Positions 290-36,500 of a stretch of DNA of 49,247 nucleotides are shown piece by piece; position 1 is the first letter of the stretch; each line of letters starts with the position of its first letter. The stretch is from assembly GCA_944383975.1 (NCBI GenBank), contig CALWRN010000051.1, positions 1-49,247 of the forward strand. The letters run 5' to 3'. The DNA is from an uncultured Clostridia bacterium. GTDB taxonomy: Bacteria > Bacillota > Clostridia > Christensenellales > UBA1242. Position numbers and translations under genes: made by a program. A model generated the notes under the pieces. The model had not been told where the DNA came from, made no database searches, and worked only from the letters and a program-made list of their open reading frames with translations.

Positions 290-305
290 TGTTCCACGTG
301 AAACA
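290..305. promoter_or_regulatory. parS: parS centromere site 1 (TGTTCCACGTGAAACA)
   Basis: Matches the Firmicutes parS consensus TGTTNCACGTGAAACA; lies downstream of parAB. Confidence 0.95.
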
Positions 306-334
306 ATTTTCTTCTGACCTTAAATCTTCTTGAA

Positions 335-1903: not shown

Positions 1904-2723
1904 TGTTTCTTACCTCTCTTAATTTAATTTTTGTATCTTTAGTTATCGTTTTATATTTCACTTTATTTCTATCCAAAAACTCTTCTGCTAAAGATAAATA
2001 AGCATCTGCCCCTTTAGAATTTGGTTCATAAATTAAAATTGGCTCTCCATGACTTGGCGCCTCAGCAAGTCTTATATTTCTTGGAATGTATGTAAAGAAC
2101 ACTTTTTTACCAAAGAATTTTAAAATTTCGTCACCCACTTGTGTTGTTAAATTAGATCTTTTATCCTTCATTGTCATAACAACACCTTCAATATCTATTG
2201 ATGGATTTAAATGAAATTTTATTAATCTTATTGTATTCATAAGCTGAGTTATTCCCATTAATGGATAATACTCGCATTGCATAGGAATTATAACACTATT
2301 ACATGCCGTTAAAGCATTGACAGTTATTAATCCTAATGATGGAGGACAATCAATCATAATAAAATCATAATCGTCTTTAACTTGATCCAAAATTCCTTTT
2401 ACAATTTTCTCACGTTGTGGCATTTGAACCATTTCAATTTCTGCACCTGCCAAATCTACTGTAGATGGTATAATATCTAACCCATCAATAAGAGTTGGTA
2501 AAATAACCTCTTTAACATTTGCATCGCCAGAGATTAAATCATATATTGTTTTAAGATCATTTTCTTTATCAATTCCTAATCCACTTGTTGCATTGCCCTG
2601 AGGATCCATATCTAGTACTAAAACTTTTTTACCCATTGCGGCAACATATGCAGCCAAGTTGATACAAGTCGTTGTTTTTCCAACTCCACCTTTTTGATTT
2701 GCAAAAGCTATAATCTTTCCCAT
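1896..2723 (-). CDS. parA: Chromosome partitioning ATPase ParA/Soj
   Basis: Deviant Walker A NQKGGVGKTT, DMDPQGNAT, IDCPPSLG, RNIRLAEAPSHG. Confidence 0.97.
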   Translation of the reverse strand: MGKIIAFANQKGGVGKTTTCINLAAYVAAMGKKVLVLDMDPQGNATSGLGIDKENDLKTIYDLISGDANVKEVILPTLIDGLDIIPSTVDLAGAEIEMVQMPQREKIVKGILDQVKDDYDFIMIDCPPSLGLITVNALTACNSVIIPMQCEYYPLMGITQLMNTIRLIKFHLNPSIDIEGVVMTMKDKRSNLTTQVGDEILKFFGKKVFFTYIPRNIRLAEAPSHGEPILIYEPNSKGADAYLSLAEEFLDRNKVKYKTITKDTKIKLREVRNNG

Positions 2724-2998: not shown

Positions 2999-4882
2999 AT
3001 GGAAAATTTTGATGCTATTGTTATTGGTGCTGGACATGCTGGTTGCGAAGCAGGATTGGCACTTGCGCGAACTGGAAATAAAACTTTATTACTAACACTG
3101 AGTCTTGATGCAGTGGCTTTTTTGGCATGCAATCCTTCTATTGGTGGAACTGCTAAAGGGCAACTTGTCTGTGAAGTTGATGCACTTGGTGGTGAAATGG
3201 GAGTTAATACAGATAAGACCCTTATTCAATTAAGAATGCTTAACAGTGGCAAAGGCCCTGCAGTTCAATCTTTAAGAGCTCAAGCTGACAAAATTGAATA
3301 TCATAACCAAATGAAGTTGACTCTTGAAAAAACAGAAAATCTATTTTTAAGACAGGGTGAAGTTGTAGATATAAAAGAAGAAGGAAATATAAAAATTGTT
3401 ACAACAGCTGTCGGTCAGCAATATTCTGCAAAAGCCATTGTATTTGCAACAGGGGTTTATCTTAAAAGCCGTATCATAATAGGTGATTGGACAAAAGATT
3501 GTGGTCCTAATGGTTTTTCAAACGCTCAAAAGTTATCAGATAGTTTATCAAATTTAGGAATAGAACTGCTTAGATTTAAAACAGGAACACCTGCAAGAAT
3601 AAATGGAAGAAGTATTGATTATTCTTGTCTTGAAATTCAAAGAGGTGAGGATAACATTCAAAATTTCTCATTTATAACAAAGCGTAAACCTAAAAATAAA
3701 GCAGTTTGCTATTTAACTTATACAAATCTGACTACTCATAAAATTATTACAGACAATTTAGACAAAGCTCCTGTATTTTCTGGATTAATTAAAGGTATTG
3801 GTCCTAGATATTGTCCTTCTATTGAAACAAAAATTGTTCGTTTTGCCGATAAAGAGCGTCATCAATTATTTCTTGAACCAGAATCTTTATCAACTAACGA
3901 AATTTATATCCAAGGTTTTTCAACCTCTATGCCTGTTGATATTCAGGAAAAAATGATTCATTCAGTAAAAGGGCTTGAAAAAGCAGAAATTATGCGTGAT
4001 AGCTATGCCATTGAATATGATTGTATAGAACCAACTCAGCTTCTTCCTACGCTTGAATTAAAGGGGCATAAAGGGCTTTTCTTTGCTGGTCAGATAAATG
4101 GAACGTCAGGCTATGAAGAAGCCGCTGCGCAAGGAATTATTGCCGGTATAAACGCAAGTCTTTACATTAGAGGAAAAGAGCAACTTGTTCTTAAACGCAG
4201 TGATGGCTATATTGGTGTTTTAATTGACGATATTGTCACAAAAGGAACAAATGAACCTTATAGAATGATGACAAGTAGAGCTGAATATAGACTTTTCTTA
4301 AGACAAGACAATGCTGATTTAAGACTTACTGAAATTGGACGAAAAGTTGGATTGGTTGACGATAAAAGATATAGAATTTTTAAAAACAAACAAAAAAAGC
4401 TTAATGAAATCTTTAAATTAATTGAAACAAAATATAAGGTTGAACAAATTAAAGACTTATTCATTAATAACAATGAAAATTTGCCTAAAGAAAGCATTTC
4501 AGTAAAAGATATGCTTAAAAGAAGTAATATTGATGCCTTTAAAATAAATGACTTTTTGCACATATTTGATAAGTTTAGTTATGAAATAATAAATGAAATG
4601 AACATAATGGTTAAATATGAAGGTTATCTAAAACAACAACTTGAAGAAATAGAAAAATTTAAGAAAAATGAAAATACAATAATTCCAGAAGATTTTGATT
4701 ATAAAAAATATCATGGTCTAAGGCTTGAAGCAAGTGAAAAGCTCTCTCAAATTAAACCTTTAAGTATTGGGCAAGCTTCAAGAATTTCAGGAGTTTCTCC
4801 TTCTGATATTGCCGTGTTAAGTGTTCTTATCAAAAAATTTAATGATGAAAAAAGGGCTTTAAAAAATGAAAGAAATGATTAA
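2999..4882 (+). CDS. mnmG: tRNA uridine-5-carboxymethylaminomethyl modification enzyme MnmG (GidA)
   Basis: GAGHAGCEA FAD motif, CNPSIGG, GPRYCPSIE, GQINGTSGYEEAAAQG, RISGVSP. Confidence 0.98.
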   Translation: MENFDAIVIGAGHAGCEAGLALARTGNKTLLLTLSLDAVAFLACNPSIGGTAKGQLVCEVDALGGEMGVNTDKTLIQLRMLNSGKGPAVQSLRAQADKIEYHNQMKLTLEKTENLFLRQGEVVDIKEEGNIKIVTTAVGQQYSAKAIVFATGVYLKSRIIIGDWTKDCGPNGFSNAQKLSDSLSNLGIELLRFKTGTPARINGRSIDYSCLEIQRGEDNIQNFSFITKRKPKNKAVCYLTYTNLTTHKIITDNLDKAPVFSGLIKGIGPRYCPSIETKIVRFADKERHQLFLEPESLSTNEIYIQGFSTSMPVDIQEKMIHSVKGLEKAEIMRDSYAIEYDCIEPTQLLPTLELKGHKGLFFAGQINGTSGYEEAAAQGIIAGINASLYIRGKEQLVLKRSDGYIGVLIDDIVTKGTNEPYRMMTSRAEYRLFLRQDNADLRLTEIGRKVGLVDDKRYRIFKNKQKKLNEIFKLIETKYKVEQIKDLFINNNENLPKESISVKDMLKRSNIDAFKINDFLHIFDKFSYEIINEMNIMVKYEGYLKQQLEEIEKFKKNENTIIPEDFDYKKYHGLRLEASEKLSQIKPLSIGQASRISGVSPSDIAVLSVLIKKFNDEKRALKNERND

Positions 4883-16104: not shown

Positions 16105-16932
16105 TTACATAAATGCTTCAAGAATTTTATCTATAAGATTGGTTGTTAAATTAAAACTGTATACTTTATCATTAATTTCACAAGTAATTTTTACTGGATT
16201 GCTATTAAATTCCTCAATACTTACATGAGTATCAAGTTCAAATAAATATTGATATGCTGTTACACCACTTTCTGGTCCTTCATAATCTTCAAGAACAGTT
16301 TTTTCAAGTCCAACTTTTTCTCCATTATAAAAAGCAGAAATTTTTGAAGGTTCATCGTAGAAAATAACACTTACGTTGTTTACTAAATTATCTTCTGTTA
16401 TATTATTTCCAGAGTGAGAAATAATTTCTGCAAGGTCAGAATATCTACTGTCGTTAACTGTGAAATTAGATGTAGTTTCAACAATTATGCTATTATCATT
16501 TTTAAGATCAACAACTTTTAATGTTATGGAAAAATCTCCAGGTTGTTTTGCTGTAAATTTTATTGGTGTTGTAACATTATATTGTGCTGGAAGTTCAAAC
16601 CCATCAGAAGGTCCCCAAGTTTTAAGTTCTGATAAGTTAAATTCTCTACCTTGCTCATCAGTTGCAACGATATCAAGATTTTGGTCGTTATCAAGTTCAA
16701 GCCAAATTTGAACACTTTCATAACCATTTTCACCAAGTTCATCTGTCTTTAAAGTAACATTAAAGTTCACTTGTTCTCCAACGTAAATTTCGTTTGGTGC
16801 ATCTGTTTCAAATTTATAAGTTGAATATAAATTTTGTCCACAACTAGCCAAAATAAAACCAGTCATTAAAACAATTAAAGTTAAAGTCATTGCAGTTAAT
16901 ATATATTTTAAATTTTTTGTATTAGTTTTCAT
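16105..16932 (-). CDS. Putative lipoprotein (275 aa, acidic, beta-rich/Ig-like)
   Basis: Basic N-terminus, hydrophobic stretch, lipobox LAS-C; AAGGAG RBS. Confidence 0.75.
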   Translation of the reverse strand: MKTNTKNLKYILTAMTLTLIVLMTGFILASCGQNLYSTYKFETDAPNEIYVGEQVNFNVTLKTDELGENGYESVQIWLELDNDQNLDIVATDEQGREFNLSELKTWGPSDGFELPAQYNVTTPIKFTAKQPGDFSITLKVVDLKNDNSIIVETTSNFTVNDSRYSDLAEIISHSGNNITEDNLVNNVSVIFYDEPSKISAFYNGEKVGLEKTVLEDYEGPESGVTAYQYLFELDTHVSIEEFNSNPVKITCEINDKVYSFNLTTNLIDKILEAFM

Positions 16933-17078: not shown

Positions 17079-18140
17079 ATGTTTATAAAAAAATTAGTGC
17101 TCAAAAATTATAGAAGTTATCAAAATAAAACTTTTGATTTTGATAAAAATCTGAATATACTTGTAGGAAAAAATGCCCAGGGAAAGACTAATGTTATTGA
17201 GGCTATTTTTTATGCAATCATTGGAAAAAGTTTTAAAACTTCTAAAGAAAAAGAAGTCGTTAATTGGAATAGTGAAAAGGCATATATTAAAGCAGAATTT
17301 GAAAAGAAATATAGAGATGTTGATATTGAATTATTTTTTGATATAAATCATAAAAAAGCAGTAAAAATTGATGGTTTACCAATTAAAAAAATTGGTGAAT
17401 TAATGGGGTGTGCAAATGCAGTTTTCTTTTCTCCTGACGAGCTTAAACTTGTAAAAGAAAGTCCTGAAGAACGAAGACGCTTTATGAATATTGATATTTC
17501 ACAAACCAACAAAAGATATTTTTATTTAATAGGAAGATATGAAAAGGTTCTTGCAAATCGTAACAAACTTTTAAAAAGTTCAAAAGATATGGAAGTTGTT
17601 AAAGAGACCATTGATATTTGGGACAGAGCTTTAAGTGATCTTGCAGAGAAAATTGCAATTGAAAGAAAAAAGTTTATTGAAGAGCTTGCACCTTATGCAA
17701 AACTTGCACATCAATATATTTCAAGTGGAAAAGAAGACATTGAAATAAAATATTGCAGTAGTTTTGATGATGATTATGCTAATAAAATGATGAAAGCCTT
17801 ACAAAAAAATTTAGAAAAAGATTTTAAATTAGGTTATACTACTGTGGGAGTCCATAGAGATGATTTGGATATTTATCTAAATGGTGTAGAAGTGAAAAAT
17901 TTTGGCTCACAAGGTCAGCAAAGAACAGTTGCCTTATCAATGAAACTTGCAGAACTTGAAATAATTAAAAATAGGGTGGGCGAGTATCCAATTTTACTTT
18001 TAGATGATGTTTTTAGCGAACTTGATAAAGATAGAAGAAAAAAACTTTTAAATTTTACATCTAAATCTCAAACAATCATTACTTGCACAGAAATTGATGA
18101 TAATATAAATGCAAACATAATTAAAATTGTGAAAGATTAA
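17079..18140 (+). CDS. recF: DNA replication and repair protein RecF
   Basis: L.L.NYRSY, GKNAQGKTN Walker A, P.ERRRF.N, G.HRDDL, GSQGQQRT, LLLDDVFSELD. Confidence 0.97.
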   Translation: MFIKKLVLKNYRSYQNKTFDFDKNLNILVGKNAQGKTNVIEAIFYAIIGKSFKTSKEKEVVNWNSEKAYIKAEFEKKYRDVDIELFFDINHKKAVKIDGLPIKKIGELMGCANAVFFSPDELKLVKESPEERRRFMNIDISQTNKRYFYLIGRYEKVLANRNKLLKSSKDMEVVKETIDIWDRALSDLAEKIAIERKKFIEELAPYAKLAHQYISSGKEDIEIKYCSSFDDDYANKMMKALQKNLEKDFKLGYTTVGVHRDDLDIYLNGVEVKNFGSQGQQRTVALSMKLAELEIIKNRVGEYPILLLDDVFSELDKDRRKKLLNFTSKSQTIITCTEIDDNINANIIKIVKD

Positions 18141-18255
18141 ATTGCACTAAAAAATATTTATTAATATTAAATAATGTTTTGATTATGTAATCTATTAAAT
18201 AAAATCCTATCATTTTTATTTTTAAGTTTTATTGCTATAAGATCATAAGGGAGTA

Positions 18256-18342
18256 TTAAAAAGTTTTATAACTTAAAAAGGTTACTAGTGCAATAATACA
18301 AGATAAACCTATCACTATACCAGAATAAATTTTTATTTTCAT
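18256..18342 (-). CDS. Unannotated 28-aa single-TM micropeptide MKIKIYSGIVIGLSCIIALVTFLSYKTF (type I toxin-like)
   Basis: Manual translation. GGAGG 6 nt upstream of ATG, TAA stop, about 20 hydrophobic residues flanked by Lys. Below the ORF-track length cutoff. Confidence 0.55.
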   Translation of the reverse strand: MKIKIYSGIVIGLSCIIALVTFLSYKTF

Positions 18343-18343
18343 A

Positions 18344-18420
18344 AAAAACCTCCATTTGAAACTATTTTCAATTTTAGCAAAATTGCTTTTTTGAATAATA
18401 GAAGAAAAATGGAGGTTTTT
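18344..18420. promoter_or_regulatory. 14-bp perfect stem (18344-18357 / 18407-18420) with a 49-nt loop; sequesters the micro-ORF SD and may act as a bidirectional terminator
   Basis: AAAAACCTCCATTT...AAATGGAGGTTTTT with U-tracts on both strands; inner hairpin CAATTTT-AGC-AAAATTG. Confidence 0.75.
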
Positions 18421-18449
18421 GTTTTATTTTAATTTATTTTAAGATTTTT

Positions 18450-20303
18450 TTATTCTTCAGTTGTAACTTCGTTTATAACACTTGAAGGCTCTTTTTCTAA
18501 ATTTAAAAATTTATTTTGATTTAAAGTATTAAAATTGCAGTTTGTAAAAGTTATATTATTATTTGCAGAATTCATTGTTCCATCTTGCAATATAACAACA
18601 TAATAATTTTCATAATTTTCTAGTTTAAGAATATTTAAGTTTGTATTAAGAATATTTAGATTGATGTTTTGGCAACCAGTTAATGTGAAAATTGAATAGT
18701 TTACTTCTGATTCTATTTCTTCTTGAGAATAGATTGTTAAATTAGAATCTGTTATTGTGAAGTTTAAGTTAGAGCAATTTATCATATTTACTGCAGGGTT
18801 TCCATTAATTATAGATTGATTTGAAATATTAATTTCGCCACCTTCAACATTTGTAAAGTTTAAAGTGCCCATATCAGATTCAATAAAACTGTTTTCTATA
18901 TTTAATTTTATTTCAGAGCTGTTTTCAATATATAAAAGTTGATTTTTTGAAACAAAATTGCTGTCAATTATATCAATTTGACTATTATTAATACCTATAA
19001 ATGATATAACAGGGGAAGAACTTGTTTCAGTGGTTTCGTTATAATATATATTTGTTTCTTTTAAAATAACATTTACATTGTTTAAATAACTTGTTTCAAA
19101 TCCGTCTGTTTTAGCAGAAAGATTTATAGCACTTGCATTTGAAGAAATTTCAAAATTTAGTTTAAACAGAGTTAATTTGAAGTTGTTTAAATTATTGTTT
19201 GATGTTTCATTATCTAATGAAATTATTGAATTTTCTGAGTTACTTGATTTTAAAGTCATGTTGGCTATTGTAGTATTATAAGAAGTTTCATCATTGACAT
19301 CATTTACTAATTTAAAAACTGTGCCAGCAGAAGAACTAATAATAACATCTTGACTTTCACCAAATATTGTTAAATTTTTTGACTTTGGTATAAGTATAGG
19401 GGTTGAAATGTTAAATGTTCCATTAGAAATCATTATACTGTTTCCAACTTCAGCTGAATTTATTGTGCTTTGTAATTTTGAAATATTATTGATAATTGAA
19501 TTTGCTCTTATATTTACAGTAAAATATGTTGAGTATTCTTCATAAGAAATCTTAACATTTTCATTTCCATACATTAAAGGTGATGTATCATAAGTAAAAG
19601 CTTGTATTTCTCTTGTTTTACCACTTGCATATACAAGTGCAACTTTCATTCCTGAAGGATTAAATGTTTCTCCCACATAATATGAAGTTTTTATAGGGTT
19701 GTTAATAACAGCAATGCCGGTTATATAATCTTCTATTACAGTGATATTAATATAAGAAGTTATTTCTCCATATTTAATTACGACTGAAGTATTTTCTGTA
19801 AGAACATCAGGGTAAGACAATGTATATTCACTTTCTAAAAGTTGTCTTTCAACACCACTTTCATAAGTTGCATTTACAATAAGGCCAGTAGGATCAAATG
19901 TTTCTCCTTCAAAATATTGTGTTTTCATTCCTGCGACATTTGGAGAAATCTTATAAACTTTTCCATCGTTAATAATAACATTGCAAGAAGCAGAGACACC
20001 ACTATATTTATCTTTGACTGTTATAGTGACTTCACCATAAGAAGTGTAGGCATAAACTTTTCCTCTACCATTGACAGAGGCTATTTTAGGGTTTGATGAG
20101 GTCCATTCTAGTGCAAAACCTCTTGCGTTTGATGGAAGAATCTCATAATTTAATTGCTTTGATCCTCCAACAAAAACTTCAACAGAAGGCTGTTCAAAAG
20201 TTATGCTTTCTATTGGAATTTGTTCTTGTCCACAAGCAACTAAACCTAATAATGAAAAAGACATCATAAGACATAAAATCAAACTTGTCCAAAGTTTTTT
20301 CAT
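18450..20303 (-). CDS. Surface lipoprotein: Big_2 Ig domain, two Ig-like repeats, C-terminal Asn/Ser-rich probable beta-helix
   Basis: Lipobox LVA-C; WTSSNPKIASVN..G.V (Big_2); KTQYFEGETFDPTGLIV.ATYESG and KTSYYVGETFNPSGMKV.LVYASG repeats; periodic I.I.NS motifs. Confidence 0.8.
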   Translation of the reverse strand: MKKLWTSLILCLMMSFSLLGLVACGQEQIPIESITFEQPSVEVFVGGSKQLNYEILPSNARGFALEWTSSNPKIASVNGRGKVYAYTSYGEVTITVKDKYSGVSASCNVIINDGKVYKISPNVAGMKTQYFEGETFDPTGLIVNATYESGVERQLLESEYTLSYPDVLTENTSVVIKYGEITSYINITVIEDYITGIAVINNPIKTSYYVGETFNPSGMKVALVYASGKTREIQAFTYDTSPLMYGNENVKISYEEYSTYFTVNIRANSIINNISKLQSTINSAEVGNSIMISNGTFNISTPILIPKSKNLTIFGESQDVIISSSAGTVFKLVNDVNDETSYNTTIANMTLKSSNSENSIISLDNETSNNNLNNFKLTLFKLNFEISSNASAINLSAKTDGFETSYLNNVNVILKETNIYYNETTETSSSPVISFIGINNSQIDIIDSNFVSKNQLLYIENSSEIKLNIENSFIESDMGTLNFTNVEGGEINISNQSIINGNPAVNMINCSNLNFTITDSNLTIYSQEEIESEVNYSIFTLTGCQNINLNILNTNLNILKLENYENYYVVILQDGTMNSANNNITFTNCNFNTLNQNKFLNLEKEPSSVINEVTTEE

Positions 20304-24579: not shown

Positions 24580-27500
24580 ATGTTTAAAAAAGCCTTTAAA
24601 AGTTTATATGTTTTTGCTTTAATGATTTTTGCTTTAGGAGCAATTTTTTTGATACCTTCATTAAGCAATAAAAAGTCGGCAAAAGCAGATGGTTCAAACT
24701 TATCTGTTAGTGAATTGAGTGAGGTTGATAATAGTCAAGAACTTTTGGCTGATTCAGACTCTAATTTATGGAGTGATGCTTTAGTCAATGTTTCAAGCAT
24801 GAAGTTGAGTTCTGATACTACTATAAAAATAGATAGCAACTCTACAAAAACATTGTCTGCTTATAAAATTGGCAGTGCAACAGATTTGGCATATTTTGCT
24901 TATGCTGTAAACAATAATATAGGAAATTATAGAACTGCTACTTATGTATTAACTGCTGACATTAATCTAGAAGGTGCTATTTGGACACCTATTGGGACAA
25001 CAAATAATTCTTTTGATGGAATTTTTATTGGACAAGGTTTTTGTATTTCAAATATCAACACAGCTGATATCGCAATAGATACAGCATCAGACAGTGTTGG
25101 GCTTTTTGGAACTATTTCTGGTAGTGGTTCTGTTTCAGATTTAAGAATTGGTGGAACTTTCTTTGCTAATACTACTAAAGCTAATGTAGGTGCTTTGGTT
25201 GGAAACAATGCAGGAGAAATTATTAATTGTTTTGATGAGACCACAAGTAAACAAAAATATAATAACGGTTACACCAATGTAAATGCAATTGGAAGTAATA
25301 GTGGAAAAGTTTATACAGGATTAGCATATTTTGATACAAATGGTGGAGAACATTCTTCAAACAAAGGTATCTCAAGCGGTTCTGGCAATGTGGTTGGATA
25401 TTATGTAATTACAGACAGTGGTACTTTTAGAATAGCTAATGAAAATTGGTATGAACTTAAACGCGTTAGAGTTTGTATATCTAATAACAGTGTTGTAACC
25501 ACAACTAATATGATTTATTCAAATAGTGCTGTTGTTTTAAGAGAGAATGCTAATTCAGGAGATGTTTATCCTTTAAGAACGGGTTACAAATATACAATTC
25601 CAAATCCTAAACAAGGTAGAATTGAGTTGGTTGCTGGAAACCCATTTAATACAAATGTAACATTTAATTATCAATATGGTTCTCCAACAAACAGAAGCCA
25701 TACTGTCAGTGTCCCTTACGATTCTACATTTCAAGCAATATTGGCAAGTTATAGTTTTTTAAATCAAAGAAGTGGATTTAATTTTAATGGAATTTATAGT
25801 GACGCAAATTATAACGAAGGGAATAAATTGACTGAAACTGGCAGTGCTGATTACAAAAAATGTTATGTTAACAGCAATCAAACTGTTTATCCTAAATTTA
25901 CTGCAAAGGGAAATTTAAGATATGAAGTAATATTTGCTATAGCTGCTGGAGATAAATCTAATCAACAATCAGCATACGATCAGGTAACAAGTGCTATTGC
26001 AAGTGTAACTTCTTTAACTTCACAAGGAGATGATGTTAGGAATAAATATTGGGCAACGGCTGGGGATGTAAACAACACTAATCAATCTACATTCACTGTT
26101 ACTTTAAAACAGGGATATAGACTTGCAACTGTTGTTGGTTCAGGCGGAACTATAACCGATAATGTTGCTAACGTTGCTAGTGGTGTTTATGTAAACTTTA
26201 ATGTAACAACAGGAACTGGAAATTCTTATACAGTAAATAATACAAATAACGATGCTTATTTACCTGTAAGCGCTTCAGTTTCTGGAGACGGAACATATAC
26301 TATCACTGTTACAAATATTGCAGGTGCAAATGGTCAAATTTATCTTGTTGTTGAAAGAAAAACTTATAGTTTAACTTTTGTTCCTGAATATGTTGATGGA
26401 TTAAGCGAAGGCTCTTCAGTTACATTATCTGGTCAAGGATATAACATAAGTGGTTTAACATTAAATTACAAGATTAACGAAAGATATAATTTAACTTTAA
26501 AAGTTGGTGGTGACTTTGTAATTCTAAATTCTATTAAAGCGACAAATCCTAATCTTGCCGAAAACTTTATTACCGCAACTGCTACGGGCACATCATATGG
26601 TGGAACAATAAAATATTATCAATCTTACATATACAATATCTATATAGAAGGGGAAGCTAACGCTGTAAATAGAGAGGTTGTAGTTAAGATTGGATATATT
26701 CAAAGCAGAATTAATGTTGTTTTGAAAGATGAAAACGGAAGTGCTATTGATTTAAACACATTAGGAAAAGGGCTTGGTATTATTGTTAACGCAGACATGA
26801 ACGATAAAGTTAACTGGGTTTCAGGTGGGCAACAAACAGTTCTCTTCCACACTAATAGCGATATTACTGATGTTATAACTTCAAAAAATAATGGTCATTA
26901 TTTTGCTTCTAGTGTAAAAATAGATGGAGTTTCAATTGGATTAGGATTTACTAATGTTGATAATCAAAAATATTATAGTACTTTATCTCAAAATAATTTA
27001 ATAACAAAAATTTATAATAACGATAACCCATCTGAAACTATAATACAAATTGAAGTATTCTATAGGAAACAAACTTATGGATTAAATGTTAAATTTAAGG
27101 TTAAAAAGACTGAAGACAATTATGGTTCTAAACCAGAAGACAATATTTTCAATGGAAATACTGATTTATATAATGTTACAATCAATGGACAACCAACATT
27201 AAACACAAGTAATATTACCGGCGGAACTAAATTTACTGTTAGGGTAGAATTAACTACTAGAGGTAAGGCTATTCTTTATGGTAATGGAAACCTTGATTGT
27301 GTCGCTAATATACAAGGAACAACTACAGGAACTACTGAAGATGTAAATAATGGATTTATTGGAAGTAGCGTAAGTGCAAACAGTTCTTCTACTTCATCTG
27401 GAAATGGTATTTGGGTGTTTGATGTAACTGTCGGAACATATGACACTGATGTTGTTTTACATTTCAATTATAAAAAGTTGACTATGCAAGTTAATCAAAT

Positions 27501-30500
27501 GTATGTTGATAACTCTGAAAATAGCTTAACTGGACAATTATTGAATTTAAACACTGCGACAAGCAGTACATTTAATTTCCAATATTCAGACGGAAACATT
27601 TCTTTAGCAGGAACTTTCGGTTCAATAGAAATCCACTCTCAATATTATTTATTAGATTGGTATCTTAAAAATGGAGAATTTGTAAATATTGGCAGAGTAA
27701 ATGCAGGAAACTACGCAGATATTACAACAAACGAAAATATATTAACAGATATTATTGGGGTAAGTGCTAAATCTGTTAACACACCTTCTGTTACATATTC
27801 AAATGTTGCTGCCTATGTTGTAAAAAGAACAATTCAAGTTACTCTTACTTCTGGCAACCCTGGTTTTGGTCAAATTTATTACAATGGAGCTTTCCAAAGT
27901 GATGTACAAAGCTATGTTGCTTCAAGTGGATTAACTTATGGAACAGAACTTTCTCTTAATTCAAACATTTTTAAAAACTTAGGTTATACTTTTGCTAGTT
28001 GGAACGTTTCATGGGCAGACGGAAGTCAAACACAAATAACAAACGGAAAGTTATTAATTACAGATAAGTGGTATGCATTCTTTGGTGGAAGTCAATATAC
28101 TAATTGGAGTGTTCTTTGCATAGGAACAACTGAAAAGCAATATCAAAAAACTTCTAGTATTTCTTTAAGTGCAAATTGGACAAATATAACATACCATATT
28201 TCTTTTGATGGTGTGTCAACTTCACAAATTCAACTCGGACAAGAATTAACAATGGTTGTTCGTGAGAATGCTAAAGATGGTGTTGCTGACTATAAAATCA
28301 ATGGACAAGTATCCACTGGTTCAGGACGAAATGGTTATATTGCAGTGTCTGCAACTATATCTGCTATTGGTGGAAGTGGTGTTAAAGATATAACTGAAAC
28401 AAATGGCTTTACTTTCGTCCCTGCTAATACTGGTTTAGATGATGCTATTAAAAAAATATTGACTGAAGCATATTATTTCAGTGCAAACAGCCAAGACAAA
28501 CCTATTATGGTTACAACTAACAGAGAAGCTGCTAACTATAGAATTTATATTGATGGCTCTTCAGCAGGTTATTATTCTGTTGCTTGGAACGGAAATGAAA
28601 GCGCACTTGGTGGAGTTGATAACGGAAATGTATATATCAATGTTACATTTGATACAAAACCTGACAATATCAAGAAAGCTTTGGACGCAAAAAATCTTGT
28701 TATAACAAGAACAGGTTATGGAATTGTTCAAAACAGTTGGAAGAGAACAACTGGTTCAATGATTGACACAAACAATATCTTCAACATTACAACTGATATT
28801 CATGTTGTTCCTGTTTGGACAAAGACAAGCAATACAACAGGTTCTCGTCAAAATTGGGCAAGTGATGTTGGATCAATAAATAAATTCTATCTATATAATG
28901 AACATGATGTTTTAAACGGATTTATTACTGGTTCTAATATCGGAAGCAAAACACAACCTGAAATTAACTATACTTTAACAAATGGTGAAAAGATTACAGA
29001 TTTTGGTTATGAAATCACATTTACACCTAAAGGTGGCGGAACAGCTTCAAATTCTGTGATTTCAGGATTAAACCTTAATATTTCTAATTTCCTTAAAGCA
29101 GGAACATATCAAGTTATTTTCTATGTTAACGTTTCTGATACTTTAAGTGATGGTATCTCTTATACTTCAAGAAGTGGTGTTTCTACTTTCACTATGGAAC
29201 AAAATGAAATTGTTTTCTATGGAAATGATATTCATTCTTATTATACAGGAACAAATGAATTTGTTAATGTTAATGAGGGCGATGGTGGAGTTAACACCGA
29301 ATTTGGTTCTTTCTTATATAAATATGATTGGAACGGAAATGATTTAAGTATTGTTGCTGGTAAAACAGAAATTGGCGAAGTTGAAGATTACTTCAATAAT
29401 ATGTCAATCTTTGAGGCCGATGGAAATTATAATGTTGGCGGAAATAAATCTTTAAAACTTTATTTAAACATTGGCGCTCTTGGAAATAAATACGGCGAAA
29501 TTTATAGCGATTTATTTAGCAATGTTACTAAAGATGGAAATAACTACTATACTTATTTAAATACAGATACTGATAGTTTTGTTACTATTGAAAAAGCTAA
29601 GTTTACAATCACATTTACTTCTGGATCTGCATATTACTTTGATGGTGTAACTACTATTGTTTGGACAAATACAAGCAAACATCAATTCACAAGTGGACTT
29701 TCAACATTCACTTATGGTTATGACAATATAACACTTCACGAAGGTGCTCAACCTGGAACATATCAAGGTTCAGAAAACCATGATACTGATATAACAAAGT
29801 TCATTATAAATGGTCTATATATTGAAGGTCATGAAAGTGATTTAGATAGCAATTTTGAATGGAATATAAGCAAAAACTCAAGTTTTGAATTATTAGATTC
29901 AAAGAATGCAATTCAATATAATTATAGTCCTAAATATTTAGTTGCAAGCGGTGGAATTTTGGCAGAAGGACTTGCAAACAACTATTTACAAAAAGATGAA
30001 ACATTATCTATTGTAAATGTTATGATTGATGGTTCTGCTGTTTCAATTCCAAATGATGCTCAATTTAGTAAAAATGTTGATAATAAAGTATTATTCAGTT
30101 TTGTAAACAACAATACAAACAGCTTAAGAATCTATATTAATAATGATTTACTTTCTTCTGGAGTTAGATTATCTTTTGGAGTTCAAGTAAATCTTTCAAC
30201 AGAAAGAAGCAAAACTCTATCTATTATCTCTTGGGGAAATAGTTTAGATTCTGCAAGTTATGAAGCATTATTTAATTCTGCATTTACTGCAACAAATCCT
30301 TATACTGTTACTGTTGCTGCAAATTCAGAAAATAAAACAACATATGCTGTTATGACAGATGTTGTAAAACTAAATCTTGATTATAATGGTGGAAAGAAAG
30401 ATGGAAAGACTTCTGAAACTATTTATCTTTCTGCTATGAATGGCAATCTTGATGTAACAAATCCAACACATGATTATGCAGGATTATCATTCAATAATTA

Positions 30501-33500
30501 CAGTGCTCCTAAAACAAGCAATATTACAGTTACAGTTTCTGACGGCAAAAATGTGATTAAAACTGTTAAAGGTGGTCAAGCCGAAAACTTAAAGGCTAGC
30601 TGGAACTTTAATAATATTGTTGCAACACAAACACAAACTGCTTTAACTAAAAAGGCAAGTGTTGGTGGATTTGATTTAGGATTAAATGAATTTACTAATA
30701 TTACTTATCCTGATAAAACTACAAATAAGTCTTATACTCTTGCTCATGACAGCATGAACTTTAATTTTAACAGCGCTGACAACACATTTAAGATTGTCAA
30801 TGCAAACAATCTTGCTGAAGTTTCTATGTCTGGAGATTATGTTCTTAATGTAAGTGTTACTTACAGCGATGGAGTTCAAAATCCACAAACAAGAACATTG
30901 ACTTATACATTAAAATTAACTATTGAAATTAATACTGTTGGTATCACAAAAGACAACAGTCACCTTACTTTCAATAATACAAATCAAGCAGGAAATGTTA
31001 CTGTTGATCTTTACCTTAACGGAGCTAAAAATGGAAGTTCACTACTCAGCAATCTTCCTTCAACAAACAACTCTGGTTCTGGAAGGGGATTCTATGTAAC
31101 TATAAATTCTACAAAAGGTTATACAACTATTAATCAAGCAGATACTTATACCGTTTCTGCACATATTGATAGTTCTCTCACAGGAGTTTATGCTCTTGAA
31201 AGTGGAAAGGAAAATATAACAGTTGTTGTTGATCAATTTGTTATTCTTCTTAAGAATTACCAAGATCAAATCAATCTTTCAAAAGTATTTGGTACTGCAG
31301 ACCCTTCTCCAATTAGCACTACTTTAACTATAAAAGAAAATGCTAATGACACTGTAAAGGTTGAGTTTACAAGAGATTTAGGAAGTGGAAGCGAGGCTAT
31401 CGGACAACATTTATTGACATTTAGCAAGATTTCTCTTGCTGAAGACGAAGCAAATTATGATGTTAATGCTGATGGATTTGAAGACTACTTTGAAATAACA
31501 GTTCCTGAAACAAAACTTCAAGTTAACCTTGGGGCAAAACTTACTTATACATATAATGGATATCAACTTACTAACTTAACAGTTGAATTTAATGGAACAA
31601 ATTATACATTAAAAGGCACTGCCGGAAGTCAAAATGTTGAAGTTAAGTTTGATATGTATTACATGGCTGGAACTTCAAGAGTTGAAATTCCTCAAGATCA
31701 AAAGGCTGTTTATGCTGGATATGTAACATTCGCAAGTGCAAATGCAAACAAAAAAGCTGGAACTTATGACTTTAATGTAAGCCTTTCAAGTTCTGCTCAA
31801 GGCGGATGGAGTGGTGTTGAAATTGTTAACACTGAAAATGCAAAAATTGTTGTAGAAAAAAGAACAATTACTCTCACTGGTGCAACAAAAACTTTTGATC
31901 AAACAAATCAATTTGTTTATAACAATACTTCTACTGCTGGAAATACAGCTACTCTTGTTATTGATAATATTGTTACAGTTGGTGATGTTACTGACCAAAT
32001 TCAAGTTTCTGGACAATTTGCTCAAGAATTTGCTGGACAACAAAATATAACAAACAAAAATCTTGATAATGTTGGCGATTATGAAAACTATATTCTTACA
32101 ATGACATCAGGATTAAAAATTCTTGTTAATCCTTCTACCGAACAAGTTGATGTTACTTCTTCTGTTAATAGTTTAGTTTATGGAACTATTACAAGTGGAA
32201 CAAGCATAAGTCAATTATTAGGATTCGTTCCTATTAGTTATAATGGTGGAAGAATAAACAACATTTATATTACTGCTGAAAGTTATAATATAACAGACAA
32301 ACAATTCTCAACAGGTAATTATCTTAATGTTAAGACTTGGGATTTTGTTTATACTATGTCTTCAACAAATTATACTTTTGGTGCTTCTGTTGGCAGTGTT
32401 GGACAAAAATATTCAAAAACTTATACTCTTTCTATTACAATTACACCTGTTGCAATAACTATTAATAATGCACAAGGTAAAACTATTACAAAACAATATG
32501 ATGGATATGCAAATGTTCTTGCTGGTTTTGTAAATCAAAATGTAAATGCTAGTGACGGATATTATACATCATCTGGTATTTTAACAGGAGATGTTATCAC
32601 CGTTGTAAGCGCTTCATATGAAAATGAAAAAATTGGAAATGGTAAAGTTGTAACTGCAACTTTAAGTGGCGACAACAATAACTATACAATTACACAAAAT
32701 ATTTACGGCAATATCACAAATGTTGCACTCATATTCAATAAATACCTTGAAACAATGGCATGGGTTGATGATGGAATTGATGAGTTTGGCAACGCTGATG
32801 CTCTTCATATCACATATACTGGTGATTTAGATGCTGTTATTAACACAATTATTGCAGTTTCTTCTCGCGCAACTAGAGTTGGTTATACTCAAACAGGTTG
32901 GACTTATAATGATGTCAATATGGCTTCTGTTGATTTTGACAAAGAATCATTCCTTCAAGATGCTGTTGACAATAAGTCTGTAGGTATTACTATTAACGCT
33001 GTTTGGGAAATAAACAAATATACAGTAACTGTTGATAGTGGTGCAAATACAGTTGTTTCTCATGATAGTGTTACTTTCCCTAAAGAAGTAAGTTATTGGG
33101 ATACAATCTCTGATATAAAAGTTAATGCAAATGAAGGTTATACTTTTGAAAATGTTACTTTAAATCCAAACAATGCAACATTGTCTATGACAGGTCAAGC
33201 AACAAACAAAGGAACATTCACATTAACTCACATAACAGGAAATTTAACTGCAACTATTGTTAGCGAAGAAATTACTGTTAGAATCATTATTGATTACAAC
33301 AATCCAGAAAGCTTTATTGTTGATACTAATAGTGCTGGCTGGACTGGTGGAATTAAAGATAGAGTATTAAAATACTCTGAACTTTCTTCTCAAGATTTGC
33401 CTGTTCTCTATGTTACTACTCCTAACACTTATGATTTTGATGAGTGGACAAATGTAACTGGAAACACAAGCCTTGGTGCAAATATTTGGGAAAGAATTAA

Positions 33501-36500
33501 AAATGCTGGATTTGATTTTGATTTCACACAAGATAACTTAACTGGTTATACATTCAAAGCAACTTGGACTGAAGCAGAACTTTCTATCACTTTAAATGTT
33601 GCAAATACTGCTGAAGTTACATTATATATGAATGATTTTAATGGTTCTAAATTATCTGCTCAAGCAGATGGAACTTATAAAATTCATTATAATGATACTG
33701 TTGCTGTAAAAGTAAATAGTGATGATTGGTATAAGTGGACAAATACTTCAATTGTAGGAAATGTTGTTTCTATTAGTGGTGATATTACTGCAAACAATCA
33801 AGCAAACAACAAGACTGATGGTCAATTTGTTCTTAATACTATTCACTCTTCTTTAACTATTACTATTACTATTGATGCAATTGATATCACATTCACAACT
33901 TCTTATACAAAACCTATTGGTGCTGATATTACTGAAGGTAGTGGAGATGTAAGTGGTGTTTATGATAAAGACAGCGGAAATACAACTCTTGGACAAGTAA
34001 TTCCTTACTATACTCCTGAAGTTGGAACATATACTCAAGATTATTGGGAAAATGGAGATAAACAATTTACTAGCGATAGCCCTGTAGAAGATGTTATTAC
34101 TTCATTATATGGAAGCATTCCTACAGAAGATATTTCTCTTGCACTTGTTGCACATTTTAAAGGTTTAACTTATACAGTTACTTTTGAAAAAGGTGTTCCA
34201 CAAGAAGGCAAGGAAGCTGAATTTATTGGCAACGATGCTGGTAAAGATGTTGTTACAAGACAATGGGTTTACGGAAGCATAATTTCTGATATCCCAGAAA
34301 TCTATGTTGAAGGACAAACTCATTCTTGGAGCAATGGTAGTGAAACTTATGCTAATGGAAGTCCTTTCATTACTGACTATCCTAACAAGAGTTGCACTAT
34401 GACAATTACTGCTGACTGGTCTAACATTAAATACAATGTTCAAGTTTTCTTTAGCAAAAACGGAAATGAAACTCAAATCATAAATGTTCTTGTTGACGGA
34501 AGTGAATATACTGAAGGTCAACCAATTCAAACAATCTTCAATACAAATAAAGCATTTAATTTCACATTACAAACAGGTTATGAAGTAGATGCTTTAAATA
34601 CAAGAATTTTAACTGATGATAGTTCTGGTCAAGGCGATTATACTAAAGCTAAGATTAATACTAGTGGAAATATTGTAACTATCAGTGAAATTCATGGAAA
34701 TATTACTGCTGAAGTTGTAATTAAAGCTAAAGACTATACAATTACTATTCAAAAAGATAATGCTGAAAATATTTCTCAAACAACATTTGATGTTTCTTAT
34801 GATCAATCTATGACAGACTTCTTTGACGGAGTTACTTTCGCACGTGATGGTTATTTGGTTGACTCATTAAAATCAGGAACGCAAAACTTTGCTGTTTCTT
34901 CAGATGGTGGAAATAGTTGGACTTTCAATGCTCCATTCGTTCAAAATGGTGTTTATAAAAACGATGGAAATCTTGTTTTGAAAGCATACTGGACTTCTCA
35001 AAAGACTTATGTTACTGCAACAACAACTCCTAACAATGGTCTCTATTTCAACGGTGCAAAACAAACTATTGCAAACAGCACTCTTAAAACTCTTAAAGGT
35101 GATGAGGCAGTTGTTAAAGGCGCTACCTTTGCAAACGGAGATAAAGTTGTAGATGTTTACTATATGCTTGACGGAACAAGATATGAAATTGAAGCAGACA
35201 ATTCTCTTCTTTATAGAAATGTTTTAGATAATAAAGATGTATATATTGTTGTTGCTCTTCATGATACTCTTTTAGATGGCAGTGATTCTATAACTTATAC
35301 AATTCAATCTGAACCTCAAAAAATCACTCTTTCTCCAAGTGATATCACATTTAATGATACTGTTCTTGAAACTTACTATAGTGGAACAGAAAACTTTAAC
35401 ATCACAGATAATTTCAGTGAGGGAACTTGGCACTATGCTGACGGAACTCAAATTACTGAATTGACTTATTCTAAAGTTGTTATTGTTGACGGAACAGGAT
35501 TATATGATGTTGGAAATAACTATACTGTTAAATATTACTTCAATGCAACTGGTGAATTTGATATTGCAAACTATACCGGTCTTACAGCAGAAGGATCTTA
35601 TTATACCTATACAACTTCTCAAGTTACAGGAACTATTATACAAACACCTGTCACAATAACAGTTTCTGGCATGGGATTTGAAAATGGTGAAAATCAAGAA
35701 GTTATTTCTTATGATATTTCTAAACCAGACTTTGTTTCTAAATTTGATGTTGAAATTACACAAATCTTAACTTCAGACAGTGTTGCAAATGTTTACAACA
35801 CTACTGATCAATTCAGCATTACTGGAACTGTTAAAAATGGTGAAAACGACAAAACCTCAAACTTCGTTTGGGTTATTGCCGGTTCATATACTATTGTTTC
35901 TAGTGATGAAGCTTATAAGGTAGTTACTGATGTTAAGTATTTTGATACAAAAGCTATTACAGATAAAGATGATATAAATATATCATTAATTAGATATAGT
36001 TATAATGGCGATACAAAGACGGTTAGTCTTGACAGAGATTTCTTCAACCTTGTTGTTAGTGATCAACTTATCTTCTCTGTTTCATCTAACGGAACAAATT
36101 CTCCATTAATTCAAGTTGCAATTGGTCAAACAATTACATTTACATTTGAAATTGATGGAACTATGGCTGTTCTTGCTTGGACAGAAAATCCTCAAGTTGA
36201 CTCATTATTATCAACATTAAACGTTATTGATGCTGAAGGAAGTCGTCAATACTCTCAAGAATTTACTGCAGAGACAACTGTTAATGCTGTTCTTACTGAC
36301 TATAAAGCTGTGCTTTTAAGTCTTGGTGATAAAGGTGGAGATCAAGGTTATATCTATGTTCAATTAAATGGTGCTACTGCTGAAGCAATTGTTCAAGATA
36401 GTTGGACTGGATTTGAATTTGCTAGATGGGATACTGATGGTAGTGGAGTTAGCGCTGAAGGAAATACTATTTCTGCAGCCGCTGATGCAAAGATTACTAC

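What the first reader, a model, noticed from the sequence alone, without database searches (positions are those of the whole stretch)
18141..18449. Hidden SD-locked transmembrane micropeptide antisense to the recF 3' region: candidate type I toxin-antitoxin or RNA-controlled peptide module
The 309-bp gap between convergent recF and the lipoprotein holds an unannotated minus-strand ORF (18256-18342), MKIKIYSGIVIGLSCIIALVTFLSYKTF, a single TM helix flanked by lysines. Its GGAGG is fully paired in a perfect 14-bp stem with an anti-SD about 50 nt upstream, and the loop can form alternative hairpins. A second CUCC element (ACUCCCU) follows the stop codon and could fold back on the SD. I saw no terminator between the recF stop and this stem, and the stem has U-tracts on both strands. 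A plus-strand RNA (recF 3' UTR or a separate sRNA) would therefore cover the whole ORF in antisense and end at the stem. A short hydrophobic peptide, a sequestered SD and an overlapping antisense RNA are the established hallmarks of type I TA loci such as TxpA, Fst and the C. difficile modules. I do not recognise this peptide, and coupling to recF next to oriC would be unusual.
Basis: partly seen in the sequence, partly recalled or inferred. Interest (0 to 1): 0.75.

Follow-up and report, generated by a model that had tools for sequence, protein, structure and literature searches.

The report
Small membrane-peptide gene behind SD-locking terminator
Between recF and a surface lipoprotein gene of an uncultured gut Clostridia bacterium lies a probably genuine 28-residue membrane-peptide gene, found in only three species, whose ribosome-binding site is buried in a conserved terminator-like hairpin; nothing yet shows that it is a toxin-antitoxin module.

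Summary
The minus-strand ORF 18256-18342, the GGAGG 6 nt before its ATG, the perfect 14-bp stem (18344-18357 / 18407-18420) around a 49-nt loop that folds on itself, T-tracts on both strands, and the lack of any other terminator after recF are all in the sequence.

The ORF is very probably a real gene. It is single-copy and occurs in only 3 of 154 species of the genus, always as recF-> <-peptide, hairpin, <-Big-domain lipoprotein. It has no indels while its flanks are full of them. dN/dS is 0.15-0.47, with dS close to that of recF. It is the only one of six frames without stops and has the most synonymous changes.

The hairpin has the A-tract/stem/T-tract form of this genome's bidirectional terminators, but with a long structured loop. 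It is the only one of 282 GGAGG+start sites with a 10-bp or longer perfect anti-arm upstream.

The type I toxin-antitoxin reading is weak:
- No conserved antisense promoter was found.
- One of the three species has a canonical terminator between recF and the ORF.
- The second CUCC element is not conserved.
- The peptide matches no toxin family and has no charged tail, no paralogs and no link to mobile elements.

Interest is modest.

The parts
17079..18140 (+). recF (353 aa), convergent with the small ORF
   Evidence: Pfam SMC_N/AAA_23 hits. Orthologues at 51-91% identity in 80 related MAG loci.
18141..18343 (+). Inferred recF 3' untranslated extension, antisense to the small ORF. No terminator lies here in the window.
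   Evidence: The best hairpin followed by a T-tract in 18061-18300 scores only -0.8 kcal/mol (+) and -2.4 kcal/mol (-). No RNA data; this is inference.
18248..18254 (-). ACUCCCU after the stop codon, a window-specific second anti-SD
   Evidence: Predicted to pair with the SD in a transcript lacking the 5' arm. Absent in L026 and L037.
18256..18342 (-). Small ORF, 28 aa, MKIKIYSGIVIGLSCIIALVTFLSYKTF: one TM helix with lysines at the N-terminus
   Evidence: Orthologues MKTKIYTGLVIGISCLIALVTFLSYKG (L026) and MNVKIFTNLVLFLSTILALVTFLICQ (L037). dN/dS 0.15-0.47. The only open frame, and the one with the most synonymous changes. Kyte-Doolittle 19-residue maximum 2.3-2.4.
18349..18353 (-). Shine-Dalgarno GGAGG, 6 nt before the ATG; part of the 3' arm of the hairpin on the minus-strand RNA
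   Evidence: P(unpaired) = 0.00 in a transcript that carries the 5' arm. SD-ATG spacing of 5-6 nt is conserved in all three species.
18344..18357 (.). Basal stem arm AAAAACCTCCATTT (plus-strand reading)
   Evidence: Perfect 14-bp inverted repeat. Folds.
18358..18406 (.). 49-nt 'loop' that folds into an inner hairpin
   Evidence: The inner hairpin is kept, with pair changes, in L026/L138 and is only weakly kept in L037.
18371..18379 (-). Candidate extended -10 (TGCTAAAAT) inside the loop, for a transcript that would lack the anti-SD arm
   Evidence: A TAAAAT hexamer lies 17, 18 and 19 nt upstream of GGAGG in all three species, with TG in two of them. Consensus match only; inferred.
18407..18420 (.). 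Basal stem arm AAATGGAGGTTTTT (plus-strand reading). On the minus-strand RNA it carries the anti-SD CCUCC (18415-18411).
   Evidence: L026 has C->U here, which gives a G.U pair on the minus strand and a C.A mismatch on the plus strand.
18416..18436 (+). T-tract TTTTTGTTTTATTTT after the stem on the plus strand, the putative recF termination point
   Evidence: Its complement AATAAAACAAAAA is identical in all three species.
18450..20303 (-). 617-aa lipoprotein with Big_2/Big_3 domains, upstream of the hairpin on the minus strand
   Evidence: signal peptide with LVAC lipobox. Orthologues at 62% and 49% identity lie upstream of the peptide in L026 and L037.

Best explanation
The locus holds a genuine, lineage-restricted small membrane-protein gene. 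It encodes 26-28 aa with one TM helix, probably N-in (inferred). Its translation start region is built into a conserved long hairpin.

The hairpin sits between the convergent recF and Big-domain lipoprotein genes. It has the A-tract/stem/T-tract form of this genome's bidirectional intrinsic terminators, so its first job is most likely to end both transcripts (inferred).

The 3' arm of the hairpin on the minus strand is the peptide's GGAGG. Any RNA that carries the whole hairpin, such as read-through from the lipoprotein gene, therefore has a locked SD and cannot be translated for the peptide. This is shown by folding only.

The peptide is most likely made from transcripts that start inside the loop, from a candidate conserved TAAAAT -10 box 17-19 nt upstream of the SD. 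Alternatively it is made after the 5' arm is cleaved off. Both routes are inferred.

In the window and its nearest relative, recF read-through adds antisense coverage of the ORF, but this is not a conserved part of the module. What the peptide does is unknown. Nothing here shows that it is a toxin.
For: ORF is real:
- Orthologues are found in exactly 3 of 154 species of the genus, one copy each, in the same synteny.
- The ORF has no indel, while its flanks are full of them.
- dN/dS is 0.15, 0.47 and 0.45, with dS 0.70-0.90, against recF dS of 0.89-0.96.
- The ORF frame has 6 synonymous codon changes per pair, against 0-4 in the other five frames. It has the mildest replacements and is the only frame without stops.
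- Two strains of the L026 species differ in the ORF by 2 changes, both synonymous.
- In a substitution-only neutral simulation, an ORF with a TM helix survives in 11% of runs at the L026 divergence and 2% at the L037 divergence.
- It has a full GGAGG, a 5-6-nt spacer and an ATG in all three species.

Hairpin:
- It is conserved in all three species, with the SD paired.
- Stem sequence changes keep pairing: CCAUUU/AAAUGG in the window versus CCAAAUUU/AAAUUUGG in L037. L026 and L138 each show a C->U change that gives a G.U pair on the minus strand.
- It is unique in the genome.

Terminator reading:
- Typical terminators of this genome are an A-tract, a stem and a T-tract with loops of 3-8 nt.
- L039/L040, which have the same convergent recF/Big-like pair but no peptide, carry a simple bidirectional terminator at that position.
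- The T-tracts on both sides are conserved.

Loop promoter:
- TAAAAT lies at a conserved distance from the SD.
- Without the 5' arm, mean P(unpaired) of the SD rises from 0.00, 0.00 and 0.23 to 0.17, 0.37 and 0.52.
Against: - There are only four sequences from three species, so every evolutionary test rests on small counts.
- The 49-nt loop is atypical for terminators of this genome, and the standard terminator scan does not call it.
- -10-like hexamers are common in DNA of 27% GC, and the -35 matches are poor at 2-4 of 6.
- In the window the SD can still pair with the downstream CUCC even without the 5' arm.
- An SD locked by a hairpin of -13 to -30 kcal/mol is tighter than ordinary genes need, which leaves room for a toxin-like reading.
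Confidence: 0.55

Rival explanations
1. A type I toxin-antitoxin-like module. The peptide is a membrane toxin, and its primary transcript is kept translationally inert by the SD/anti-SD stem. An antisense RNA covers the ORF and represses it or triggers its decay. That RNA would be either the recF 3' UTR or a separate plus-strand sRNA ending at the stem.
For: - The peptide is 26-28 aa, hydrophobic and single-TM. That size falls in the range of known type I toxins, given as 28-60 aa in B. subtilis by PMC6563280.
- SD sequestration in an inert primary transcript is known for dinQ (PMC5066626, abstract) and aapA1 (PMC6733600, abstract). Here the SD is fully paired.
- In the window and in L026, recF has no terminator before the ORF, so antisense read-through is unavoidable.
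- The window has an extra 3' anti-SD that pairs with the SD in a shortened transcript.
- The phylogenetic range is narrow.
Against: - L037/L137 has a canonical bidirectional terminator (-9.9 kcal/mol core, A- and T-tracts) between recF and the ORF, so antisense coverage is not conserved.
- No dedicated antisense promoter is conserved. The gap from the recF stop to the ORF stop is 115, 40 and 14 nt in the three species.
- The 3' CUCC is not conserved.
- There is no match in Pfam, NCBIfam, PHROGs, PADLOC or Rfam.
- The C-terminal tail is SYKTF, SYKG or ICQ rather than the charged tail typical of Gram-positive toxins (PMC6563280).
- It is single-copy, has no paralog and is not found in phage, plasmid or IMG/VR collections.
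- No trans complementarity was found in the genome beyond generic SD/start matches.
Confidence: 0.15
2. The ORF is not expressed. The only functional element is a long, structured bidirectional terminator, or an RNA-stability hairpin, for recF and the lipoprotein gene. The GGAGG arm, the ATG and the open frame are by-products of T-rich sequence.
For: - The hairpin has the A-tract/T-tract architecture of this genome's terminators.
- Hydrophobic ORFs arise easily in T-rich DNA.
- A substitution-only simulation still keeps an ORF of similar length in 33% and 14% of runs.
- The ORF is absent from 151 of 154 species of the genus.
- Its SD is locked in every full-length fold.
Against: - The pattern of change is that of a coding sequence. 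dN/dS is 0.15-0.47, synonymous changes concentrate in the ORF frame, and replacements are conservative.
- The invariant ALVTFL block varies only at third codon positions.
- There are no indels in the ORF, against many in the flanks.
- The start codon, SD spacing and length are kept at a divergence where recF dS is about 0.9.
- The joint probability of keeping an ORF with a TM helix is about 0.002 in the simulation.
- L037 supplies the ORF with a terminator of its own.
Confidence: 0.2
3. The ORF is a decaying relic, namely the N-terminal signal or TM segment of a formerly longer gene lost between recF and the lipoprotein gene.
For: An N-terminal MK.K followed by a hydrophobic stretch looks like a signal peptide, and the window and L026 have a Cys at position 15.
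Against: - There is no canonical lipobox, and L037 has no Cys.
- The length is stable at 26-28 aa and dN/dS is below 1.
- No longer homologue was found in 154 genus genomes and 400 family genomes.
- The stop codon position is kept within 2 codons.
Confidence: 0.05

Closest known systems
Bidirectional intrinsic terminators between convergent genes (A-tract, GC-containing stem, U-tract)
   Same: It lies between convergent genes. Five A residues precede the stem and T-tracts follow it on both strands. This matches the many AAAAA-stem-TTTTT terminators of this genome and the simple terminator at the same place in L039/L040.
   Different: The loop is 49 nt and folds into an inner hairpin, against the usual 3-8 nt. 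One arm is a functional-looking SD followed by an ORF. It is the only inverted repeat in the genome with CCTCC/GGAGG.
Type I toxin mRNAs with a translationally inert primary transcript (E. coli dinQ and tisB; H. pylori aapA1)
   Same: A hydrophobic peptide of about 27-29 aa. The SD is sequestered by an upstream anti-SD, so the full-length RNA should not be translated. Loss of the 5' part would free the SD (abstracts of PMC5066626 and PMC6733600).
   Different: There is no identified antitoxin RNA, no sequence relationship, no evidence of toxicity, a single copy, and antisense coverage that is not conserved. The tisB comparison is from my own knowledge.
Gram-positive type I toxins (TxpA/BsrG, Fst, C. 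difficile CD0956.2-type)
   Same: A small single-TM peptide convergent with an overlapping transcript, and a narrow taxonomic range.
   Different: Those toxins have charged C-terminal tails, lie mostly in prophages or prophage-like elements, occur in several copies, and have antisense RNAs with their own promoters (PMC6563280). None of these features was found here.
Non-toxic bacterial small membrane proteins (reviewed in PMC12648545)
   Same: Under 50 aa, one TM helix, missed by annotation, lineage-restricted and under purifying selection.
   Different: No partner or function can be assigned. The SD-in-terminator arrangement is unusual for this class. This comparison is from my own knowledge.
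Antisense RNA from terminator read-through (S. aureus sbrB/lexA, PMC8745188)
   Same: In the window and L026, the recF transcript would become an antisense RNA to the neighbouring convergent gene because no terminator intervenes.
   Different: Here read-through is structural, in that there is no terminator at all, rather than the result of a leaky terminator. It is abolished in L037 by a canonical terminator.

Membership tests
Type I toxin-antitoxin system | Small (<60 aa) hydrophobic or TM peptide | tested here: met
   26-28 aa, with a Kyte-Doolittle 19-residue maximum of 2.3-2.4 in all three orthologues.
Type I toxin-antitoxin system | Peptide is toxic when overexpressed | not testable with these tools
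   Needs inducible expression in a laboratory strain.
Type I toxin-antitoxin system | Antisense (cis or trans) RNA antitoxin that represses the toxin mRNA | tested here: inconclusive
   recF read-through is unavoidable in the window and L026 but is blocked by a canonical terminator in L037. No conserved antisense promoter was seen. No trans complementarity was found. RNA runs were unavailable.
Type I toxin-antitoxin system | Toxin mRNA fold that occludes the SD | tested here: met
   The SD is fully paired in a 13-16-bp basal stem in all three species.
Type I toxin-antitoxin system | Sequence membership in a described toxin or antitoxin family | tested here: not met
   No significant hit in Pfam, NCBIfam, PHROGs, PADLOC or Rfam.
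Type I toxin-antitoxin system (Gram-positive families) | Charged C-terminal tail; prophage or mobile-element location; multiple copies | tested here: not met
   The tails are SYKTF, SYKG and ICQ. There is one copy per genome. It is absent from IMG/VR, phage and plasmid collections. The criteria come from PMC6563280.
Bidirectional intrinsic terminator | Stable stem flanked by an A-tract upstream and a U-tract downstream on both strands, between convergent genes | tested here: met
   AAAAA-CCTCCATTT...AAATGGAGG-TTTTT, with T-tracts conserved in three species.
Bidirectional intrinsic terminator | Short loop, compact hairpin | tested here: not met
   The loop is 49 nt, against 3-8 nt in the genome's typical terminators. 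The consensus scan does not call it. The loop does fold into an inner hairpin, so the whole is a long interrupted hairpin.
Bidirectional intrinsic terminator | Transcript 3' ends at the U-tracts | not testable with these tools
   Needs Term-seq or RNA-seq.
Bona fide small protein-coding gene | Conserved open frame with a coding substitution pattern | tested here: met
   dN/dS 0.15-0.47. The frame comparison is and the simulation. There are no indels.
Bona fide small protein-coding gene | Evidence of translation | not testable with these tools
   Needs Ribo-seq, a tagged fusion or mass spectrometry.

The most novel reading that the evidence does not exclude
This is a chromosomal type I-like module with no dedicated antitoxin gene. 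The 3' UTR of the recF mRNA, next to oriC, serves as the antisense repressor of a membrane-toxic micropeptide. The peptide's own mRNA is additionally locked by a terminator arm that doubles as the anti-SD. This would tie expression of a membrane toxin to transcription of a replication and repair gene.

A second, unexcluded novel reading is that the ORF arose de novo downstream of the GGAGG arm of a pre-existing bidirectional terminator, which supplied a ready-made SD.
Probability: 0.12. Interest if true: 0.6.

Novelty: new member of a known kind. Interest (0 to 1): 0.3.

Why it matters
If the peptide is made, it is an unannotated orphan small membrane protein of an uncultured, reduced-genome (about 1.1 Mb) gut Clostridia lineage. 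At 87 nt including the stop, it is probably too short for standard gene callers to report (my own knowledge).

The arrangement is a compact example of one hairpin doing three jobs: it would end two convergent transcripts and gate translation of a third gene. It also gives a clean test case for how young small genes acquire expression signals.

It would matter more if the peptide proved toxic and controlled by the recF transcript. Present evidence makes that the minority reading.

Tried and rejected
- **Paralogues in the own genome.** tblastn found none.
- **Homologues beyond three species.** An HMM search over all 154 species of the genus and 400 genomes of the family gave only TM-helix noise below E of about 1e-4. 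IMG/VR, phage and plasmid collections gave none. The metagenome scan added only one more strain of the L026 species.
- **DNA similarity of the gap in 40 relatives.** Only low-complexity matches appeared. The C7 match lies in a coding region and is chance similarity.
- **Known families.** Pfam, NCBIfam, PHROGs, PADLOC and Rfam gave nothing significant.
- **Second anti-SD (ACUCCCU).** It is real in the window and predicted to pair with the SD, but it is absent from both relatives, so I rejected it as a defining part.
- **Promoter just upstream of the hairpin.** No -10 box with the invariant final T is conserved there.
- **Overlapping alternative ORF 18266-18355 (29 aa).** It is open in the window and L026 but has stops in L037, and it shows no coding pattern.
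- **Lipoprotein signal-peptide relic.** There is no canonical lipobox, and L037 has no Cys.
- **Trans-encoded antisense partner.** Only generic SD/start matches were found.
- **RNA thermometer.** I rejected this by inference, because the stem is too stable.
- **Strand of selection on the stem.** Two C->U changes give G.U on the minus strand and C.A on the plus strand. Two events are too few to decide.

Full report
**Setting.** The window is contig C51 of a 1.13-Mb MAG with about 27% GC. The recF orthologues of its relatives carry titles such as 'uncultured Clostridia bacterium' and 'Candidatus Caccovivens', from human and animal gut. dnaN, dnaA and recF lie at 13.2-18.1 kb, and cumulative GC skew reaches its minimum near 16 kb, so oriC is close by.

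**Observation.**
- recF ends at 18140.
- A minus-strand ORF at 18256-18342 encodes MKIKIYSGIVIGLSCIIALVTFLSYKTF.
- GGAGG lies 6 nt before its ATG.
- That GGAGG is inside the arm 18344-18357 of a perfect 14-bp inverted repeat. The other arm is 18407-18420 and the loop is 49 nt.
- Folding either strand gives the basal stem plus an inner hairpin in the loop. For the 95-100-nt element the energies are -26.1 kcal/mol (z -6.2, minus strand) and -28.2 kcal/mol (z -4.9, plus strand) (larger contexts).
- No terminator-like hairpin lies between the recF stop and the stem.
- The next gene, 18450-20303 (-), is a lipoprotein with an LVAC lipobox and Big_2/Big_3 domains.

The arrangement is not a chance product of composition. 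Of 282 GGAGG+start sites in the genome, only this one has a perfect upstream anti-arm of 10 bp or more. Of 331 inverted repeats, only this one contains CCTCC/GGAGG.

**Is the ORF a gene?** I fetched recF orthologues with their flanks from 80 related species and read the DNA downstream.
- Two species have the same layout as the window, recF-> <-peptide, hairpin, <-Big lipoprotein <-MntP.
  - L026 (UMGS2054, recF 91% identical) encodes MKTKIYTGLVIGISCLIALVTFLSYKG.
  - L037 (CALWTS01, recF 81% identical) encodes MNVKIFTNLVLFLSTILALVTFLICQ.
- An HMM of the three peptides, run over all 154 species of the genus and 400 genomes of the family, finds exactly these three, one copy each. The weaker hits are TM-helix noise.
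- The metagenome scan adds a second strain of the L026 species (L138, 99.25% identical). Its two differences in the ORF are both synonymous.
- The ORF has no indel, while the flanks are riddled with them.
- dN/dS is 0.15 (window-L026) and 0.47 and 0.45 (each versus L037). dS is 0.70-0.90, about the same as recF dS of 0.89-0.96, so the DNA has diverged at neutral sites.
- Among the six frames, the ORF frame alone is free of stops. It has 6 synonymous codon changes per pair against 0-4 in the others, and the mildest replacements, with mean BLOSUM62 of +0.3 to +1.2 against -0.1 to -2.2.
- The invariant ALVTFL block varies only at third codon positions.
- In a substitution-only neutral simulation, an ORF of similar length with a TM-grade hydrophobic stretch survives in 11% of runs at the L026 divergence and 2% at the L037 divergence.

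I conclude, at about 80% confidence, that the ORF is a real coding gene under somewhat relaxed purifying selection. The recF tree is compatible with a single origin in a small subclade, although support for the grouping that joins L037 and L028 to the window and L026 is weak at 89/79.

**The hairpin.** All three species keep the hairpin with the SD inside the basal stem.
- The stem sequence differs while pairing is kept: CCAUUU/AAAUGG in the window, and CCAAAUUU/AAAUUUGG in L037 with one A.G mismatch.
- L026 has a C->U change in the anti-SD, and L138 has a C->U change in the inner stem. Both give G.U on the minus-strand RNA but C.A on the plus strand. This hints that the minus-strand fold is the selected one, but two events are too few to decide.
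- The block AATAAAACAAAAA 5' of the stem on the minus strand is identical in all three. It is the complement of the plus-strand T-tract TTTTTGTTTTATT.
- Typical terminators of this genome are an A-tract, a stem, a 3-8-nt loop and a T-tract. The present element has the same outer form with a long structured insert.
- In L039/L040, which have the same convergent recF/Big-like pair but no peptide, the position is occupied by a plain bidirectional terminator, AAAAAATAGGAAAA...TTTTCCTATTTTTT.

The most economical reading is that the hairpin terminates both convergent transcripts and that its minus-strand 3' arm doubles as the peptide's SD.

**Consequences for expression (inferred).**
- An RNA that carries both arms has P(unpaired) for the SD of 0.00, 0.00 and 0.23 in the three species. 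Read-through from the lipoprotein gene should therefore be silent for the peptide.
- A TAAAAT hexamer lies 17, 18 and 19 nt upstream of GGAGG in all three species, although the loop of L037 is otherwise diverged. It reads TGCTAAAAT in the window and L026.
- A transcript starting about 7 nt after this hexamer would lack the anti-SD arm, and P(unpaired) for the SD rises to 0.17, 0.37 and 0.52.
- This is a consensus match in AT-rich DNA with a poor -35 box, so I rate the loop promoter as plausible and not shown. Cleavage of the 5' arm is an alternative route to an open SD.

**Type I toxin-antitoxin reading.**

In favour:
- The peptide's size and hydrophobicity fit.
- The SD is locked, as in the inert primary transcripts of dinQ and aapA1 (abstracts of PMC5066626 and PMC6733600).
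- recF read-through is unavoidable in the window and L026.
- The taxonomic range is narrow.
- In the window only, a 3' CUCC pairs with the SD in a shortened transcript.

Against:
- L037/L137 has a canonical bidirectional terminator, AAGAACAACTT-TA-AAGTTGTTCTT, with a -9.9 kcal/mol core and A- and T-tracts. It overlaps the recF stop and immediately follows the peptide stop. There the ORF is an insulated cistron and recF antisense is not needed.
- The gap from the recF stop to the ORF stop is 115, 40 and 14 nt, which leaves no conserved room for an antisense promoter.
- The 3' CUCC is absent from both relatives.
- No toxin or antitoxin family matches.
- The C-terminal tails (SYKTF, SYKG, ICQ) lack the charged region that PMC6563280 lists as common to Gram-positive type I toxins. 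That review also lists prophage location and multiple copies.
- Here there is one copy, no phage or plasmid relative, and no trans partner.

I put this reading at about 15%. It cannot be excluded without a toxicity test and RNA mapping.

**Other readings.**
- Terminator only, with a spurious ORF: about 20%. It is contradicted by the coding pattern.
- Relic of a longer gene: about 5%. No longer homologue exists, and dN/dS is below 1.

**Limits.**
- There are only three species and four sequences.
- The large protein database refuses queries under 40 aa.

**Verdict.** I classify it as a new member of a known kind, an orphan small membrane-protein gene gated by a terminator hairpin. Interest is modest at 0.3.

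Noticed in passing
window 291-306, 334-349, 396-411: There are three copies of the 16-bp palindrome TGTTCCACGTGAAACA, two direct and one inverted; the last two form an 18-bp inverted repeat with a 45-nt loop. From my own knowledge this matches the Firmicutes parS consensus. It fits the nearby oriC region; the ORFs at 947-2723 (-) may be parB/parA, but this was not checked.
   Followed up: partly
L037 about 3545-3585 / L137 about 1585-1625: In the CALWTS01 species a canonical bidirectional terminator (AAAAAGAACAACTT-TA-AAGTTGTTCTTTTT) overlaps the recF stop codon, with the TAA in its loop. It also serves as the terminator of the small ORF. The window and L026 have nothing equivalent.
   Followed up: yes
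window 18266-18355 (-): A second ORF of 29 aa (MEVFYENKNLFWYSDRFILYYCTSNLFKL) overlaps the peptide ORF in another frame and starts inside the SD stem. It is open in the window and L026 but has stops in L037, and it shows no coding substitution pattern.
   Followed up: yes
window 16105-16932 (-): The 275-aa ORF between dnaA and recF has no Pfam hit and is poorly conserved, at 31-56% identity over partial lengths, or absent in relatives whose dnaA and recF are 76-97% identical. It is a variable gene right at the presumed origin.
   Followed up: no
loci L027, L032-L035, L038, L097 (downstream of recF): In many relatives recF is followed, on the same strand, by a gene that begins MLYDEIKKAN... In the window's genome the homologue is on another contig (C18:6814-6945). 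The recF neighbourhood has therefore been rearranged within the genus.
   Followed up: partly
window 24580-43767 (+): A single 6395-aa ORF. Other notes of this scan already cover it, and I did not study it here.
   Followed up: no
loci L032, L033, L035, L093 (100-300 nt downstream of recF): A GC-rich structured element interrupts the AT-rich spacer before the next gene, for example ggcgagcgttttgtttgcccg...caaactcccc...aaaacgctcgcccacc followed by 'aaatcattttgaaaaa'. It recurs in several species and is absent from the window. Its nature is unknown.
   Followed up: no
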